Positions 13,105-17,668 of a stretch of DNA of 64,000 bases are shown here, one piece after another; position 1 is the first letter of the stretch, and each line of letters opens with the position of its first letter. The notes below the pieces were generated by a model, which made no database searches, was not told the origin of the DNA, and worked only from the letters and a program-made list of their open reading frames with translations. Made by a program: the position numbers and the translations under genes. The stretch comes from a virus: IMG/VR virus record IMGVR_UViG_3300024255_000006, positions 1-64,000 of that record; one strand, given 5' to 3'.

Positions 13105-13134
13105 AAATACAATTGCTCACTATAATTTATTTAG
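13102..13134. promoter_or_regulatory. Overlapping divergent late promoters
   Basis: CATAAATA on + at 13102 and CTAAATA on - at 13128-13134, between gp4 and the next gene. Confidence 0.65.
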
Positions 13135-13136
13135 AA

Positions 13137-13874
13137 GTGCCTTACAACTCGATTAATGATTATATCAATATGATCAGTAGCCAGGGTGGTATGGCGCTCT
13201 CTACTGGTTATATTGTTAGTTTTACATTTAACAGTCCAGACGGTGTAAAGACTGTAATTGATTCTCTTACGCCAAGTATCAGTAAATTATATGAAACTTT
13301 TTGTGATGAAGTAAGTCTTCCACCATCACAAGCAGCAACTGGTCAAGTTACTGGTGTAAATTTAGGTGAAGGGATGCGATCTTACGCACACACTAAAATG
13401 TATACTGATTTTAGCTTGGGGTGGATGTGTGATGCTAACATGGAACCATATAAGTTTGTCCAATCATGGTGGCAGTACATTTTTCAAGAATATGATGCGG
13501 CGGGGGAGATTGATACAACATCTGGATCTCAAATAGGTGCTAGTGAGGGAGCAATGCTGGGATCAGCACCTCTAGTATCAAATAGAACAACAAGACTCAG
13601 ATATCCCGACGATTATTACTGCACGATTAAGATTGCTAAAGCAGAGAAAGGACCTAGTGGAGCTGCATCTAGAGTATCTGCAGTACATATTCTTCAGGAT
13701 GTATATCCATATCAAATAGATGCTGTTCCTCTCTCATTTGGACAGTCACAACTTACAAAATGTACTGCTAATTTTTACTATTCTAAGCATAGAGTAGTGT
13801 ATAATGATAATAGAGGTCCTGGACTACTAGCATTAAACTTCTTGGATGGATTCGGATCCCAAACTATAACATAA
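13137..13874 (+). CDS. Tail-tube initiator / gp54-gp19-like protein
   Basis: Tube-fold pattern (CDEVSLP, W.QYIF, YP, DVYP..I); likely GTG start at 13137 (track start 13113). Confidence 0.7.
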   Translation: MPYNSINDYINMISSQGGMALSTGYIVSFTFNSPDGVKTVIDSLTPSISKLYETFCDEVSLPPSQAATGQVTGVNLGEGMRSYAHTKMYTDFSLGWMCDANMEPYKFVQSWWQYIFQEYDAAGEIDTTSGSQIGASEGAMLGSAPLVSNRTTRLRYPDDYYCTIKIAKAEKGPSGAASRVSAVHILQDVYPYQIDAVPLSFGQSQLTKCTANFYYSKHRVVYNDNRGPGLLALNFLDGFGSQTIT

Positions 13875-13896: not shown

Positions 13897-14607
13897 ATGG
13901 CATTACCAAAGGTTACTGCACCAACCTATGAGTTGGAACTGCCTTCTACAGGCAAAAAAGTTAAGTATCGCCCATTTCTTGTAAAAGAAGAAAAACTTCT
14001 CCTTATCGCTACAGACTCTGGAGATGAGAATCAAATCACTCAAGCAGTCATGGATGTTATGAGTGCTTGTATAATCACTCGTGGCGTAAAACCAGAGAAC
14101 CTAGCAAGTTTTGATCTTGAATATCTTTTCTTGAGAATTCGTGCCGCTTCAGTTGGTGAGGAGATTGTTCTCAATGTTCGTTGTTTAGATGATAACGAGA
14201 CTGAAATGAGTCATACCGTTAATATCAATACGATTCAAGTGTTCAAACCAGAAGGACACAGCGATAAGATTATGCTGAGTGATAAAGTTGGTGTAATCAT
14301 GAAGTATCCTAGTGTTTCTCAGTTTATTAGAACTGGGTTTGTTGCTGATCCAAATGCAGATCCTTTGGATATTGTTGTTGAATCTCTTGATCAAATCTTT
14401 GAAGATCAAGAGATCACAGAGGCATCCGATTGCACAAAGAAAGAACTTCTTTCCTTTATCGAGAGTATGACTCAAGAACAGTTCCAAAAACTTACTGTAT
14501 TCTTTGAGACGATGCCCAGACTTCAGCATTCATTTGAAGTCAAGAATCCTAATACAGGAAAGACATCTAATTATACTATCGAGGGCTTACAGAGTTTTTT
14601 CGCATAG
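13897..14607 (+). CDS. gp26: Baseplate hub assembly protein gp26
   Basis: MALPK..PTYEL.LPS, YRPFLVKEEK.LL, FDLEYLFLRIRAASVGE, C-terminal EGLQSFF. Confidence 0.9.
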   Translation: MALPKVTAPTYELELPSTGKKVKYRPFLVKEEKLLLIATDSGDENQITQAVMDVMSACIITRGVKPENLASFDLEYLFLRIRAASVGEEIVLNVRCLDDNETEMSHTVNINTIQVFKPEGHSDKIMLSDKVGVIMKYPSVSQFIRTGFVADPNADPLDIVVESLDQIFEDQEITEASDCTKKELLSFIESMTQEQFQKLTVFFETMPRLQHSFEVKNPNTGKTSNYTIEGLQSFFA

Positions 14608-14634
14608 CACTCTTCCATACATCTTTGGAGGAGT
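14595..14634 (+). other. Candidate -1 programmed ribosomal frameshift signal
   Basis: T TTT TTC heptamer in the gp26 frame, 7-nt spacer, 9-bp stem ACTCTTCCA/TGGAGGAGT. Confidence 0.55.
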
Positions 14635-14780
14635 ATTACCAGACTAATTTCGCCCTGATGCAGCATCATAAATACTCTTTGACCGAGCTAGATAATATGA
14701 TACCTTGGGAAAGAATCGTCTATTTGGCGTTACTTACCCAATTCATTGAAGAGCAAAAACAACAACAATCTAACTTCTAA
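14601..14780 (+). CDS. gp51: Baseplate hub assembly catalyst gp51-like reading frame (absent from ORF track)
   Basis: -1 frame relative to gp26 reads RIALFHTSLEEYYQTNFALMQHHKYSLTELDNMIPWER..; first ATG only at 14658. Confidence 0.8.
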   Translation, partial: RIALFHTSLEEYYQTNFALMQHHKYSLTELDNMIPWERIVYLALLTQFIEEQKQQQSNF

Positions 14781-17668
14781 TGCCTTCAGGAACTCAGGGT
14801 TATGAAATTACCTCTGGTAGCATAACCGAATCACTAATTGATAGATTTAGAAAACGAAAGGACAAAACCAAAGACGAAAAAAAGTCTGGTTCTGGGAAGG
14901 GTGGAGCCTTAGCGCCAACTGGTATGCCAACTGGTGGCGGAGGAGGGGGAGCGGTTCCTGCTAGCGTATCTGTTGTTACTCCAAATCAGAAGTTATTAGT
15001 TTCTGGACAAGCAAATGTATTAGGTGCTGGAAGTAGTGCGATTGTTCCTACAGATAATGGAGCAATCACAAAGAGTGATAATAAGTTAGTTGAAGTAAAC
15101 GTAAGGATATTAGAAGAACAAAAAAAGCAAACTAAGTTAATTGCTGCTCAAACTAGTTTACTAGCATCATCCCAAAAAGGTGGAGCACTTGCTAAATTTG
15201 CAAGTCAAGAATCTCAGTTAGAAGAAATTGAAGATCTCTCAGGAACTCAAGATTATTCTAGAGCGAAAAGACCTAAGTGGTTAGACTTTTTGATGGGTCT
15301 AATCAAGGGTGTATTAGCTGCTGTTAAAGCATTAGCGCCAGTTATTATGAAAGCGGCAGCATTAGTTGCTGCAGCAGTTGCTGCTGGAAAACTGGCGGGT
15401 GCTCTTGCTAATGCTCTTAGAACCATCCCAGTAAGAGTTACTGAGATACCTAGAGCAGCATTGCCGCCCGCGGCTGCTAGAGCAGCATTGCCGCCTGCAG
15501 CAGCTGTTAGACCATCTGCACTTCCTAGAGCAGCAGCAGTATCTCCTAATGCGAAATTATTACCATCAACAACAAGTGGAACTTCATTAAGTACACAAGC
15601 AGCATCGGGACAGAGAGCACTTCCTCCTGGTCAAGGTACAGCATTTAATCCTGAAATAAAACCACAGACTAGGGTTCTAGAACCAGTTGAGGTTGGAAGA
15701 GGAAACTTCAAAGGAAATGATAGAACATTTGAAGCACTTAGACAGCAGGCTCAGAGAGGAGTACCTGAAGAAGCAGAAAATGCTAGAAGAATCCTACAGA
15801 ACAAGGGTGCTAATGTAAATGTAAAACCAGTAACTCCTGCTATTCCAAAAGGTGCTGGTGCTGCTGACGATATAGTTGGTGCAGCGGGTGATATTGCTAA
15901 AACTGGTAAAAAATCTGGACTGAGATTTTTGATTCCTGGCGCAAGTGCTATTACAGCAGGACTGTCTATAATCTCTGGAGATTACGCTGGTGCTATTGTT
16001 GATTCTGCCGATGCTGCAGGTGATCTAGCAATCGCAACGGGTGCTACAGGCACTGCTGCTACAATCGGAACTGCTCTGAGCGCAGGTGCTGCAGTCATTG
16101 GTACTGGTATTACAGCATCTTACGTTGGTGAGTGGACTCGTGGTGTTGGTGATTGGGTTCGTGGAGATGGTAATAATGCTGCATTGAACGTTGTAAGTAG
16201 TATTACTGAAGGACTTTCTGCAGCACTTGAGACAATTGGTGCTCCATTCCGTGCAATCTTTGAGTTTATCAACTCTGGATTTAACATGGAGAAATCCAAT
16301 GATGTGATGGCGGAAGTTGATTCAAACATCCGTGAGTCCACCAGACAAGGACTCAATGCTATTGACTTCTTAAATATTATTCCAGATGATGCAGGATCGT
16401 TTGGTACACTAGGATTATATGGCGACTCTGCTAAGAGAGCAGACGCTAAGATGCGTGGTGAAGGTGATGTTAAGAACGCTAGTGGTGGTTCATACTTCTT
16501 AGACAATCCTTCTAGCTTTGGACCATTCCAAGGTGGAGAAGCAGGTAGTGAAGTTGTTACTTTTACTCCGTTTGGAGGAAGGAAACTTGTTAATGAGATG
16601 GGATCTCATATGACGACTGCATTAGAGCAACCATTTAAGTTCGCAATCGGTGGTATTGCTGTCGCTATTAATGAAGTCATCAAAATTCTTGGTCCCATTG
16701 GAAATCTCATGGGTCCTGCAATCAGACCAGTTCTTGATAAATTAATTAAAATTAGTGGAATAAGTAATCTTCAATTGACTGGAGTCAGTGGTGGAGCATT
16801 GAGTCAACTTGGTGGAATGATGAACAGTCCTGGTGGAGCGATGAATAATATGTTCCAAGGAATTAGTGGAAACTTCCAAAGAATGATGAGAATGATGGGA
16901 TTAAACACTATGCCTGGTGTAACTCCTGGTGCTCAACCTTTCACTGGTCAAACTACTGAGAGTGATTTCTCTGCAGTTCTACCACAAGGAGCTCCTCAAT
17001 TTACTAGTGGTTTTGGTAAAAGAGATCTTGGATATGGATCTAAAGATCATGGGGGAGTTGATATTGGTGTTGATAGAGGATCGCCAGTTACCGCAATGGA
17101 AAAAGGAACTGTTAGTTCGATTATTCCAGACTTTATGCATGGATCTGCTGTTGTTGTAACAAGTCCAGGTGGCGCTGCTACTTTGTATGGTCACGTTGAT
17201 CCAACAGTTGCTCAAGGAGATGAAGTAAATAAAGGTGATAAGATCGCTACAGTTAAATATTGGCCAGGCACTGGTAATATGGCTGCTGATAATACACACT
17301 TACATCTAGAAAGACATCCTGGTGGGTATAATGGAAGATCCTCTGCTGTAGATCCTCTGCAGTTTACAAAAAATGCATCTAAGGCAAAAAATACAGAACT
17401 TTCCGCTGCAGCAGCAACTCCACAAACTTCGGCACCACCGTCAACAGCATCCCTTATGCTCCCAACTATCAAAGCAGCAGCAAAAGATAATCCTCAAATG
17501 GCGGCATTGGCTAAGATCGTGGAATCCAATATGGCTGCTCAGCAAAGATCAGCACAACCTCAACAACAGCAATCTGCTGGTCTTGGTGCAAATCCATTCG
17601 TAATGCCTTTGGCTGATCCTAATGCTGCGAACCTAGCACCACTTACACTGTTTAAGTTATCGCAATGA
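14780..17668 (+). CDS. Tape-measure / hub-like virion protein with M23 peptidase domain
   Basis: Long Ala/Gly-rich helical region; HGGVDIG (HxxxD), YGHV and HLH motifs; follows gp26/51. Confidence 0.7.
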   Translation: MPSGTQGYEITSGSITESLIDRFRKRKDKTKDEKKSGSGKGGALAPTGMPTGGGGGGAVPASVSVVTPNQKLLVSGQANVLGAGSSAIVPTDNGAITKSDNKLVEVNVRILEEQKKQTKLIAAQTSLLASSQKGGALAKFASQESQLEEIEDLSGTQDYSRAKRPKWLDFLMGLIKGVLAAVKALAPVIMKAAALVAAAVAAGKLAGALANALRTIPVRVTEIPRAALPPAAARAALPPAAAVRPSALPRAAAVSPNAKLLPSTTSGTSLSTQAASGQRALPPGQGTAFNPEIKPQTRVLEPVEVGRGNFKGNDRTFEALRQQAQRGVPEEAENARRILQNKGANVNVKPVTPAIPKGAGAADDIVGAAGDIAKTGKKSGLRFLIPGASAITAGLSIISGDYAGAIVDSADAAGDLAIATGATGTAATIGTALSAGAAVIGTGITASYVGEWTRGVGDWVRGDGNNAALNVVSSITEGLSAALETIGAPFRAIFEFINSGFNMEKSNDVMAEVDSNIRESTRQGLNAIDFLNIIPDDAGSFGTLGLYGDSAKRADAKMRGEGDVKNASGGSYFLDNPSSFGPFQGGEAGSEVVTFTPFGGRKLVNEMGSHMTTALEQPFKFAIGGIAVAINEVIKILGPIGNLMGPAIRPVLDKLIKISGISNLQLTGVSGGALSQLGGMMNSPGGAMNNMFQGISGNFQRMMRMMGLNTMPGVTPGAQPFTGQTTESDFSAVLPQGAPQFTSGFGKRDLGYGSKDHGGVDIGVDRGSPVTAMEKGTVSSIIPDFMHGSAVVVTSPGGAATLYGHVDPTVAQGDEVNKGDKIATVKYWPGTGNMAADNTHLHLERHPGGYNGRSSAVDPLQFTKNASKAKNTELSAAAATPQTSAPPSTASLMLPTIKAAAKDNPQMAALAKIVESNMAAQQRSAQPQQQQSAGLGANPFVMPLADPNAANLAPLTLFKLSQ

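What the first reader, a model, noticed from the sequence alone, without database searches (positions are those of the whole stretch)
14595..14780. Candidate -1 programmed frameshift fusing gp26 to gp51, upstream of the tape-measure-like gene
Seen: gp26 ends AGT TTT TTC GCA TAG. T TTT TTC (14595-14601) is a perfect X XXY YYZ slippery heptamer in frame. After a 7-nt spacer comes a 9-bp stem, ACTCTTCCA (14609-14617) / TGGAGGAGT (14626-14634), with one G-U pair. The -1 frame reads RIALFHTSLEEYYQTNFALMQHHKYSL..PWER to TAA 14780; this is gp51-like, but its first ATG (14658) is 19 codons into the frame. A slip would give a fusion of about 294 aa besides the 236-aa gp26. Known: lambda gpG/gpGT-type tail chaperones use a -1 shift immediately upstream of the tape measure gene, and T4 gp26 and gp51 act in hub assembly. 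Inference: T4-like cyanophages may use the same two-chaperone frameshift strategy; I am not aware of this being described for them.
Basis: partly seen in the sequence, partly recalled or inferred. Interest (0 to 1): 0.8.

Follow-up and report, generated by a model that had tools for sequence, protein, structure and literature searches.

The report
Frameshift joins cyanophage gp26 to gp51
This T4-like cyanophage very probably makes a short and a long tail-assembly chaperone from one gene because some ribosomes slip back one base on a strictly conserved TTTTTTC; the signal is real, but it appears to have been published for T4-like phages in 2022.

Summary
gp26 (13897..14607) ends AGT TTT TTC GCA TAG. 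T TTT TTC is in frame, a 9-bp hairpin follows after 7 nt, and the -1 frame is open to TAA 14780.

It is far more than chance. All 90 related loci carry T TTT TTY in the same frame. They have 48-97% gp26 identity and include KVP40, phiN3, Cr30, Milchi, Melnitz and OLIVR5. The conserved peptide starts at the heptamer, and no start codon is conserved.

Three further features fit a dnaX-like ribosomal signal:
- an SD-like GAGGG 9 nt upstream, held at the nucleotide level;
- a downstream hairpin that recurs in shifting registers;
- a 0-frame stop usually one codon after the heptamer.

T4 gp51 is the in-frame equivalent of the predicted 294-aa fusion. The N-terminal 90 residues of gp26 best match the solved tail assembly chaperones.

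Two papers cite Vladimirov, Gautam and Davidson (Virology 2022) as identifying the T4-like chaperone genes and poly-T -1 signals in them. I could not read that paper.

This scan has also reported the same site in several other genomes.

The parts
13113..13874 (+). Tail-tube-like gene directly upstream (253 aa)
   Evidence: Pfam Phage_TTP_2 PF23849, E 6e-44; phrog_45 tail tube. It occupies the position that the tube gene V holds before G/GT in lambda.
13897..14607 (+). gp26 = short chaperone form (TAC-N), 236 aa, 0 frame, stop TAG 14605-14607
   Evidence: Pfam T4_baseplate PF12322, E 5e-65; phrog_150. AF2 model has pLDDT 88.9. Residues 1-90 best match HK97 TAC 2ob9 (Z 6.8), YqbN 3klu (Z 6.5) and 3fgx (Z 6.5).
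14581..14585 (+). SD-like GAGGG, 9 nt upstream of the heptamer (candidate upstream stimulator, as in dnaX)
   Evidence: GAGGG sits at the same offset in 27/35 non-redundant relatives. The Glu codon there is GAG 27: GAA 1, against 257: 559 elsewhere in gp26.
14595..14601 (+). Slippery heptamer T TTT TTC (X XXY YYZ in the gp26 frame)
   Evidence: present and frame-locked in 90/90 loci, with nucleotide-level conservation beyond what coding requires. U_UU.U_UU.Y belongs to the efficient class of E. coli heptamers (PMC4066793).
14609..14634 (+). 9-bp hairpin with an 8-nt loop, 7 nt after the heptamer (candidate downstream stimulator)
   Evidence: Across 35 relatives the 45 nt after the heptamer fold to a mean of -11.0 kcal/mol, against -5.6 for control windows, and 19/35 are in the top 5% of their locus. 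The pairing register differs between clades.
14601..14780 (+). -1 frame extension ('gp51', 59 codons plus TAA) = C-terminal domain of the long form (TAC-NC, 294 aa)
   Evidence: phrog_634 positions 58-113 of 121, and also phrog_150 positions 237-277 of 282. Collinear with the C-terminus of T4 gp51. Conserved from the heptamer onward with codon periodicity in the -1 frame. Predicted helical.
14780..17668 (+). Tape-measure-like gene (962 aa) with a C-terminal M23 peptidase domain; its ATG overlaps the TAA of the -1 ORF
   Evidence: The positional equivalent in Cr30 is annotated as tail tape measure protein.

Best explanation
Gene 26 of this T4-like cyanophage is a tail assembly chaperone gene decoded in two ways. 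Most ribosomes read through T TTT TTC and stop at TAG 14605, giving the 236-aa short form. A minority slip back one base on the heptamer and continue in the -1 frame to TAA 14780. During the slip both tRNA-Phe re-pair on UUU. The result is a 294-aa long form whose last 59 residues are what databases annotate as a separate 'gp51'. Three features probably raise the slip rate: an SD-like GAGGG 9 nt upstream, a hairpin 7 nt downstream, and possibly the nearby 0-frame stop. By analogy with lambda G/GT, both forms would coat the tape-measure protein encoded next, and the extra helical C-terminal domain would recruit tube or hub subunits. Shown here: the signal, its conservation, the homology and the fold. 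Inferred: that the long form is actually made, its ratio to the short form, and its binding partners.
For: 1. The heptamer is in frame in 90/90 loci, at 48-97% gp26 identity in cyanophages and also in KVP40, phiN3, Cr30, Milchi, Melnitz and OLIVR5.
2. Synonymous sites are frozen: wobble T in 35/35 across six codons, TTT in 35/35 and TTC in 32/35.
3. The -1 frame opens only 7-61 nt before the 0-frame stop, and in 4 loci at or within 3 nt of the heptamer.
4. The -1 peptide is conserved from the heptamer onward, with third-position entropy 1.28 against 0.83 and 0.75 for positions 1 and 2. No start codon is conserved, and 5 of 29 sequences have none in the first 18 codons.
5. T4 gp51 consists of PF12322 at residues 1-201 plus a C-terminal extension, and it aligns collinearly across the junction with a fused homologue. 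The -1 peptide also matches the C-terminal end of the phrog_150 gp26 profile.
6. SD-like GAGGG: the Glu codon is GAG 27: GAA 1, against 257: 559 elsewhere.
7. The downstream hairpin is enriched (Mann-Whitney p about 1e-12; the sequences are not independent).
8. U_UU.C outranks U_UU.U, and H_HH.U_UU.Y heptamers are among the most efficient in E. coli (PMC4066793).
9. The N-terminal 90 residues best match three solved TAC-family structures, and the gene order is tube-like, gp26, TMP-like.
10. No DNA-level T7 fusion turned up: none of 14 T7-pattern hits is a gp26 junction, whereas nearly all of 120 T6 hits are.
Against: There is no direct evidence of the fusion protein, since no proteomic, reporter or ribosome-profiling data could be consulted. 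The hairpin has no single conserved register; only 56-60% of cells pair in either register. It is weak or absent in about 6 of 35 lineages. Marine picocyanobacteria use SD-led initiation sparingly (my own knowledge), so an SD-like stimulator is less certain than in E. coli. The fold match to TACs is modest (Z 6.5-6.8), and Foldseek found nothing significant. About half of the cyanophage sequences have an ATG at codon 6 of the -1 frame, so some independent initiation cannot be excluded in them.
Confidence: 0.8

Rival explanations
1. Transcriptional slippage: RNA polymerase adds one extra U on the T6 run, so a fraction of the mRNAs encode the fusion in a single frame and ribosomes do not shift.
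For: The site is a homopolymer run of T6, and of T7 in phiN3, Cr30 and Melnitz. One inserted U gives the same fusion. The title of Vladimirov et al. [quoted passage not shown]
Against: The run is locked to the X XXY YYZ frame in 90/90 loci, which polymerase slippage does not require. TTC is preferred over TTT in 32/35, although TTT would lengthen the run. An SD-like element at dnaX-like spacing and a downstream hairpin are conserved or enriched, and both act on ribosomes. Six T is short for efficient slippage (my own knowledge). PMC10885494 describes the 'other mechanism' as separate short and fused genes, which is the T4 arrangement.
Confidence: 0.08
2. Two separate proteins, as in current GenBank annotation: gp26 and a 51-57-aa 'gp51' that starts at its own ATG, TTG or other codon. 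On this view the heptamer is conserved only because gp26 ends in Phe-Phe.
For: S-PM2, S-SM2, KVP40 and others annotate a separate small CDS. About half of the cyanophage sequences have an ATG at codon 6 of the -1 frame. The window has a TTG at 14625.
Against: No start codon is conserved in position. In the window the first ATG lies after the conserved LEEYYQTNFAL block, and some relatives have their first Met 35 codons in. A Phe-Phe constraint does not explain the invariant wobble T of the preceding codon or the fixed TTT TTC choice. T4 gp51 and the phrog_150 profile show this domain as a C-terminal extension of a gp26-type domain. No promoter-like site separates the ORFs.
Confidence: 0.07
3. 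Chance or relic: the -1 ORF is the remnant of a once-fused gene and is no longer expressed.
For: None, beyond the lack of direct expression data.
Against: The -1 frame is open with a conserved 60-66-aa peptide in all loci where it is not cut off by the contig end (5 are), across several phage families, and shows coding periodicity.
Confidence: 0.02

Closest known systems
TAC genes of T4-like phages as described by Vladimirov, Gautam and Davidson, Virology 2022;566:9-15 (known to me only through citing papers)
   Same: The family is the same (gp26/gp51), as is its position before the tape measure. According to PMC12846349 the paper reports poly-T -1 frameshift signals in TAC-N genes of T4-like phages. 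According to PMC10885494 some T4-like phages instead carry a short gene plus a fused long gene, which I confirmed for T4.
   Different: I could not read the paper, so I do not know whether it covers cyanophages, the SD-like GAGGG, the shifting-register hairpin or the fixed stop position.
Phage T4 gp26 (208 aa) and gp51 (249 aa)
   Same: Both carry PF12322 (E 9e-64 and 4e-52). The last ~48 residues of gp51 align with the window-type -1 peptide, including the YSL..MIP.ER motif.
   Different: In T4 the two forms are separate, divergently transcribed genes with no frameshift. Here one gene plus a -1 shift gives both.
Lambda gpG/gpGT and the conserved -1 frameshift of tail assembly chaperone genes (Levin 1993; Xu, Hendrix and Duda 2004, as cited)
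   Same: The gene order is tube gene, chaperone, frameshifted extension, tape measure. The short and long products share an N-terminus, and the site is an X XXY YYZ heptamer.
   Different: The heptamer differs (lambda uses G GGA AAG, from my own knowledge). gp26 is about twice as long as a typical TAC-N, and only its first ~90 residues match the TAC fold. Sequence searches show no similarity to solved TACs.
E. coli dnaX -1 frameshift signal
   Same: The layout is tripartite: an SD-like element about 10 nt upstream, a heptamer, and a downstream stem-loop (from my own knowledge, compared).
   Different: The heptamer is U UUU UUC rather than A AAA AAG. The shift extends the protein here, whereas in dnaX it truncates it.

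Membership tests
-1 programmed ribosomal frameshift site (heptamer type) | X XXY YYZ slippery heptamer in the 0 frame | tested here: met
   T TTT TTC at 14595-14601 is in frame and frame-locked in 90/90 relatives.
-1 programmed ribosomal frameshift site (heptamer type) | -1 frame open from the heptamer and encoding a conserved polypeptide | tested here: met
-1 programmed ribosomal frameshift site (heptamer type) | Stimulatory RNA structure 5-9 nt downstream | tested here: inconclusive
   Present in the window and enriched across relatives. No single register is conserved, and it is weak in about 6 of 35 lineages.
-1 programmed ribosomal frameshift site (heptamer type) | Frameshift product detected | not testable with these tools
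   Needs mass spectrometry, a reporter assay or ribosome profiling.
Tail assembly chaperone (lambda G/GT type) | Located between the tube gene and the tape measure gene | tested here: met
   The order is Phage_TTP_2 gene, gp26, -1 ORF, 962-aa TMP-like gene. The same order is seen in KVP40, phiN3, Milchi and OLIVR5, although in phiN3 and OLIVR5 one small ORF sits between the -1 ORF and the next large gene.
Tail assembly chaperone (lambda G/GT type) | TAC fold | tested here: inconclusive
   The top three of 48,161 chains are TAC-family structures: 2ob9 (Z 6.8, 85 aligned, rmsd 4.0), 3klu (Z 6.5) and 3fgx (Z 6.5). They stand above the next hit at Z 4.2. However, Z is below 8 and Foldseek was not significant.
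Tail assembly chaperone (lambda G/GT type) | Binds the tape measure, is required for tail assembly, and is absent from the virion | not testable with these tools
   Biochemical and genetic tests are needed.
T4 gp26/gp51 family (Pfam PF12322 T4_baseplate) | Match to PF12322 above the gathering score | tested here: met
   219.7 bits against a cut-off of 24.5.
T4 gp26/gp51 family (Pfam PF12322 T4_baseplate) | Long form carries the gp51-type C-terminal extension | tested here: met
   phrog_634 E 3e-26 and the C-terminal end of phrog_150. Collinear alignment of T4 gp51 with a fused homologue across the junction. Precomputed PF28602 on homologues.

The most novel reading that the evidence does not exclude
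The 2022 paper may have covered only the gene identification and the T-run. If so, the full dnaX-like tripartite signal would be undescribed. That signal comprises an SD-like GAGGG fixed at the nucleotide level, U UUU UUC, a hairpin rebuilt in different registers in different clades, and a stop one codon after the heptamer. It spans Kyanoviridae and several other T4-like lineages. It would also show anti-SD pairing being used during elongation in hosts that rarely use SD for initiation.
Probability: 0.25. Interest if true: 0.45.

Novelty: already known. Interest (0 to 1): 0.3.

Why it matters
Public records still annotate gp26 and 'gp51, baseplate hub assembly catalyst' as two independent genes, or omit the second altogether, as S-CAM1 does. 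Reading them as one recoded chaperone gene corrects hundreds of cyanophage annotations. It also removes an apparent exception to the rule that long-tailed phages make their tail chaperone in two forms, and it explains T4 genes 26 and 51 as the two-gene version of the same pair. As a discovery it adds little, because the core point appears to be published. What may be new here is the detailed anatomy of the signal.

Tried and rejected
- **Prior-art paper.** I tried to read Vladimirov et al. 2022 by PubMed id, but it is not held. Five citing papers were read; two describe its content and three only cite it.
- **Fused ORFs.** I therefore could not inspect the DNA behind the rare 295-300-aa fused proteins (P0008, P0010, P0012, P0013, P0017). 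They may be real fusions or homopolymer errors.
- **T7 variants.** A pattern scan for a T7 version of the window's junction gave 14 hits, none of them a gp26 junction.
- **Single conserved hairpin.** This was rejected. Neither register pairs in more than 60% of cells, and the slid controls score about the same.
- **Database searches with no useful result.** Rfam gave only a sub-threshold miRNA chance hit. NCBIfam found no family. The local Pfam copy has no model for the -1 peptide. A profile search of PDB sequences found nothing, and Foldseek against PDB was not significant.
- **T4 gp51 versus KVP40.** BLASTP against the KVP40 -1 peptide alone showed no significant match. The relation shows only through the longer fused homologue.
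- **Closest named phage.** Megablast found none; the best hit was 83% identity over 140 nt to S-H9-1.

Full report
**Observation.**
- The gp26 ORF runs 13897..14607 (236 aa) and ends AGT TTT TTC GCA TAG.
- T TTT TTC (14595-14601) is an X XXY YYZ heptamer in the gp26 frame.
- After 7 nt comes a 9-bp stem (14609-14617 with 14626-14634, one G-U pair). It appears in both the minimum-energy and the centroid folds.
- The -1 frame is open from 14571 and runs to TAA 14778-14780, whose last A begins the ATG of the next gene.
- A slip would give 235 + 59 = 294 aa.
- No other slippery heptamer lies in the 34-nt overlap of the two frames.

**Identity of the genes.**
- gp26 matches Pfam T4_baseplate PF12322 (E 5e-65) and phrog_150.
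- The gene before it is tail-tube-like (Phage_TTP_2, E 6e-44).
- The gene after it encodes a 962-aa tape-measure-like protein with a C-terminal M23 peptidase domain.
- The 59-aa -1 peptide matches phrog_634 'baseplate hub assembly catalyst'. It matches only positions 58-113 of that 121-position profile.
- The same peptide also matches positions 237-277 of the gp26 profile phrog_150. Some family members therefore carry this segment as a C-terminal extension of gp26.

**Is it more than chance?** TTTTTTY itself is not enriched in the window (38 found, 38 expected). Its conservation is what stands out.
- I collected 80 IMG/VR loci (gp26 identity 48-97%), three named cyanophages (S-PM2, S-SM2, S-CAM1) and six distant T4-like phages. 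The distant six are KVP40, Sinorhizobium phiN3, Caulobacter Cr30, Pseudomonas Milchi, Methylophilales Melnitz and Agrobacterium OLIVR5.
- All 90 loci, counting the window, have T TTT TTY in the gp26 frame. In 85 of them the heptamer begins 10 nt before the stop.
- In every locus where the -1 ORF is not cut off by the contig end (5 are), the -1 frame encodes a conserved 60-72-aa peptide that starts at the heptamer.
- The -1 frame opens only 7-61 nt before the 0-frame stop. In four loci it opens at or within 3 nt of the heptamer, which pins the shift site.
- I reduced the set to 35 sequences below 85% aa identity. The codon before the heptamer takes six forms (AGT, TCT, GCT, AAT, GGT, GAT) and always ends in T. 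The next codon is TTT in 35/35 and the one after is TTC in 32/35.
- Background Phe usage is TTT 305: TTC 166, and T makes up 40% of third positions. Apart from the start codon, these are the only 2 of 236 columns with an invariant third position.
- The sequences are related, so naive probabilities overstate the case. Even so, six different codons sharing a wobble T is not a protein-level constraint.

**Independent start versus shift.**
- In 29 aligned cyanophage junctions no in-frame start codon is conserved. An ATG occurs at codon 6 in about half, a TTG at codon 11 in some, and nothing within 18 codons in five.
- The conserved block (H/Y..LE.YY.TNFALMQHHKYSL) begins before these candidate starts.
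- Column entropy after the 0-frame stop shows coding periodicity in the -1 frame: 0.83, 0.75 and 1.28 bits for codon positions 1, 2 and 3.
- No promoter-like site separates the two ORFs.

**T4 comparison.**
- In T4, genes 26 and 51 are divergently transcribed.
- Both products carry PF12322: gp26 over residues 1-206 and gp51 over residues 1-201.
- gp51 has about 48 further residues. These align collinearly, across the junction, with a 299-aa fused metagenomic homologue. The alignment includes the YSL..MIP.ER motif of the window-type -1 peptide.
- T4 gp51 is thus the in-frame equivalent of the product predicted here, and T4 gp26 is the equivalent of the short form.
- The KVP40 record already notes that its small ORF resembles the C-terminus of T4 gp51.

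**Anatomy of the signal.**
- *Upstream element.* GAGGG lies 9 nt before the heptamer (14581-14585) and is present at that offset in 27/35 sequences. The Glu codon there is GAG 27: GAA 1, against GAG 257: GAA 559 elsewhere in gp26. This is an SD-like element at dnaX-like spacing, fixed at the nucleotide level.
- *Downstream hairpin.* Almost every lineage has a hairpin starting 0-10 nt after the heptamer. The 45 nt starting 3 nt after the heptamer fold to a mean of -11.0 kcal/mol, against -5.6 (sd 3.3) for control windows from the same loci. In 19 of 35 loci this window is in the top 5% of its own locus.
- *Register of the hairpin.* The pairs are not homologous. The window's clade, the MAHEDLES clade and the S-PM2 clade use different registers, and neither of the two registers tested pairs in more than 60% of cells. 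The structure looks maintained, but it has been rebuilt repeatedly.
- *Published efficiencies.* Measurements in E. coli rank U_UU.C above U_UU.U and place H_HH.U_UU.Y among the most efficient heptamers (PMC4066793). This fits the preference for TTC.

**Ribosomal frameshift or polymerase slippage?** Four features favour ribosomal frameshifting over addition of an extra U by RNA polymerase:
- the frame-locking of the run;
- the preference for TTC over a longer T-run;
- the SD-like element;
- the downstream hairpin.

Slippage cannot be excluded without RNA data.

At the DNA level I found no T7 fusion of this junction in IMG/VR. None of the 14 pattern hits is a gp26 junction, while nearly all of the 120 T6 hits are. 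A few singleton fused proteins of 295-300 aa exist in the metagenome protein collection, and four of the five read exactly as the predicted product (..FFRIAL....FFLIAL..).

**Chaperone identity.**
- An AlphaFold2 model of gp26 is confident (pLDDT 88.9). Foldseek found no significant PDB match.
- An exhaustive structural alignment against 48,161 chains ranked three structures at the top. They are the HK97 tail assembly chaperone 2ob9 (Z 6.8, 85 residues aligned, rmsd 4.0), YqbN 3klu (Z 6.5) and 3fgx (Z 6.5).
- All three align on residues 1-90 and stand clear of the next hit at Z 4.2. This is modest but coherent support for a TAC-type N-terminal domain.
- A model of a fused homologue predicts the extension as four helices at lower confidence, pLDDT 57-80.

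**Prior knowledge.**
[quoted passage not shown] Ten held papers cite it, but it is not itself held.
- PMC12846349 cites it for poly-T -1 frameshift signals in TAC-N genes of T4-like phages.
- PMC10885494 cites it for T4-like phages that carry a short gene plus a fused long gene instead of frameshifting.
- Together these cover the essence of the present finding, so I rate it as already known. The caveat is that I could not verify whether cyanophages, or the accessory signals, are treated there.
- This scan has also reported the same gp26-gp51 frameshift in other genomes. One of those notes said no publication was found, and the citations above correct that.

**Verdict.** Its function is most likely a G/GT-type pair of tail or hub assembly chaperones acting on the adjacent tape-measure protein. 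Novelty is low. The practical value lies in correcting annotation and in the detailed description of the signal.

Noticed in passing
window 14778-14782: The TAA stop of the -1 ORF overlaps the ATG of the 962-aa tape-measure-like gene (TAATG). Ribosomes in the -1 frame would therefore terminate exactly at the next start, which could couple TMP translation partly to the frameshifted fraction.
   Followed up: no
window 14780-17668: The tape-measure-like protein carries a C-terminal M23 peptidase domain at residues 756-847 (E 8e-15). This suggests a tape measure with its own cell-wall-cutting domain.
   Followed up: partly
proteins P0008, P0010, P0012, P0017: These singleton metagenomic ORFs of 295-300 aa read straight through the junction, exactly as the predicted frameshift product. 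They may be real in-frame fusions or homopolymer sequencing errors.
   Followed up: partly
protein P0013: This fused 299-aa homologue has an aberrant junction (..GLSFFSRKYGHEDL..) in place of the usual FFRVSMAHEDL. The pattern looks like two compensating indels around the heptamer.
   Followed up: no
Pfam column: Homologues of the -1 peptide carry a precomputed family PF28602 that is absent from the local Pfam copy. As a result the window's peptide gets no Pfam hit locally.
   Followed up: no
L003 (S-CAM1, NC_020837) 2215-2398: S-CAM1 and several ACG-2014 and S-CAM4 records annotate no gene at all over the conserved -1 ORF. This leaves an apparent 180-nt gap between gp26 and the next gene.
   Followed up: yes
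L052:1501-2313: One IMG/VR relative has a gp26 about 35 residues longer than the rest (271 aa), yet it keeps the same heptamer and an especially long downstream hairpin (-22 kcal/mol).
   Followed up: no
L085, L086, L088, L089 (phiN3, Cr30, Melnitz, OLIVR5): In these distant T4-like phages a further small ORF of 80-140 aa sits between the -1 ORF and the tape-measure-like gene. The cyanophages have no such ORF.
   Followed up: no
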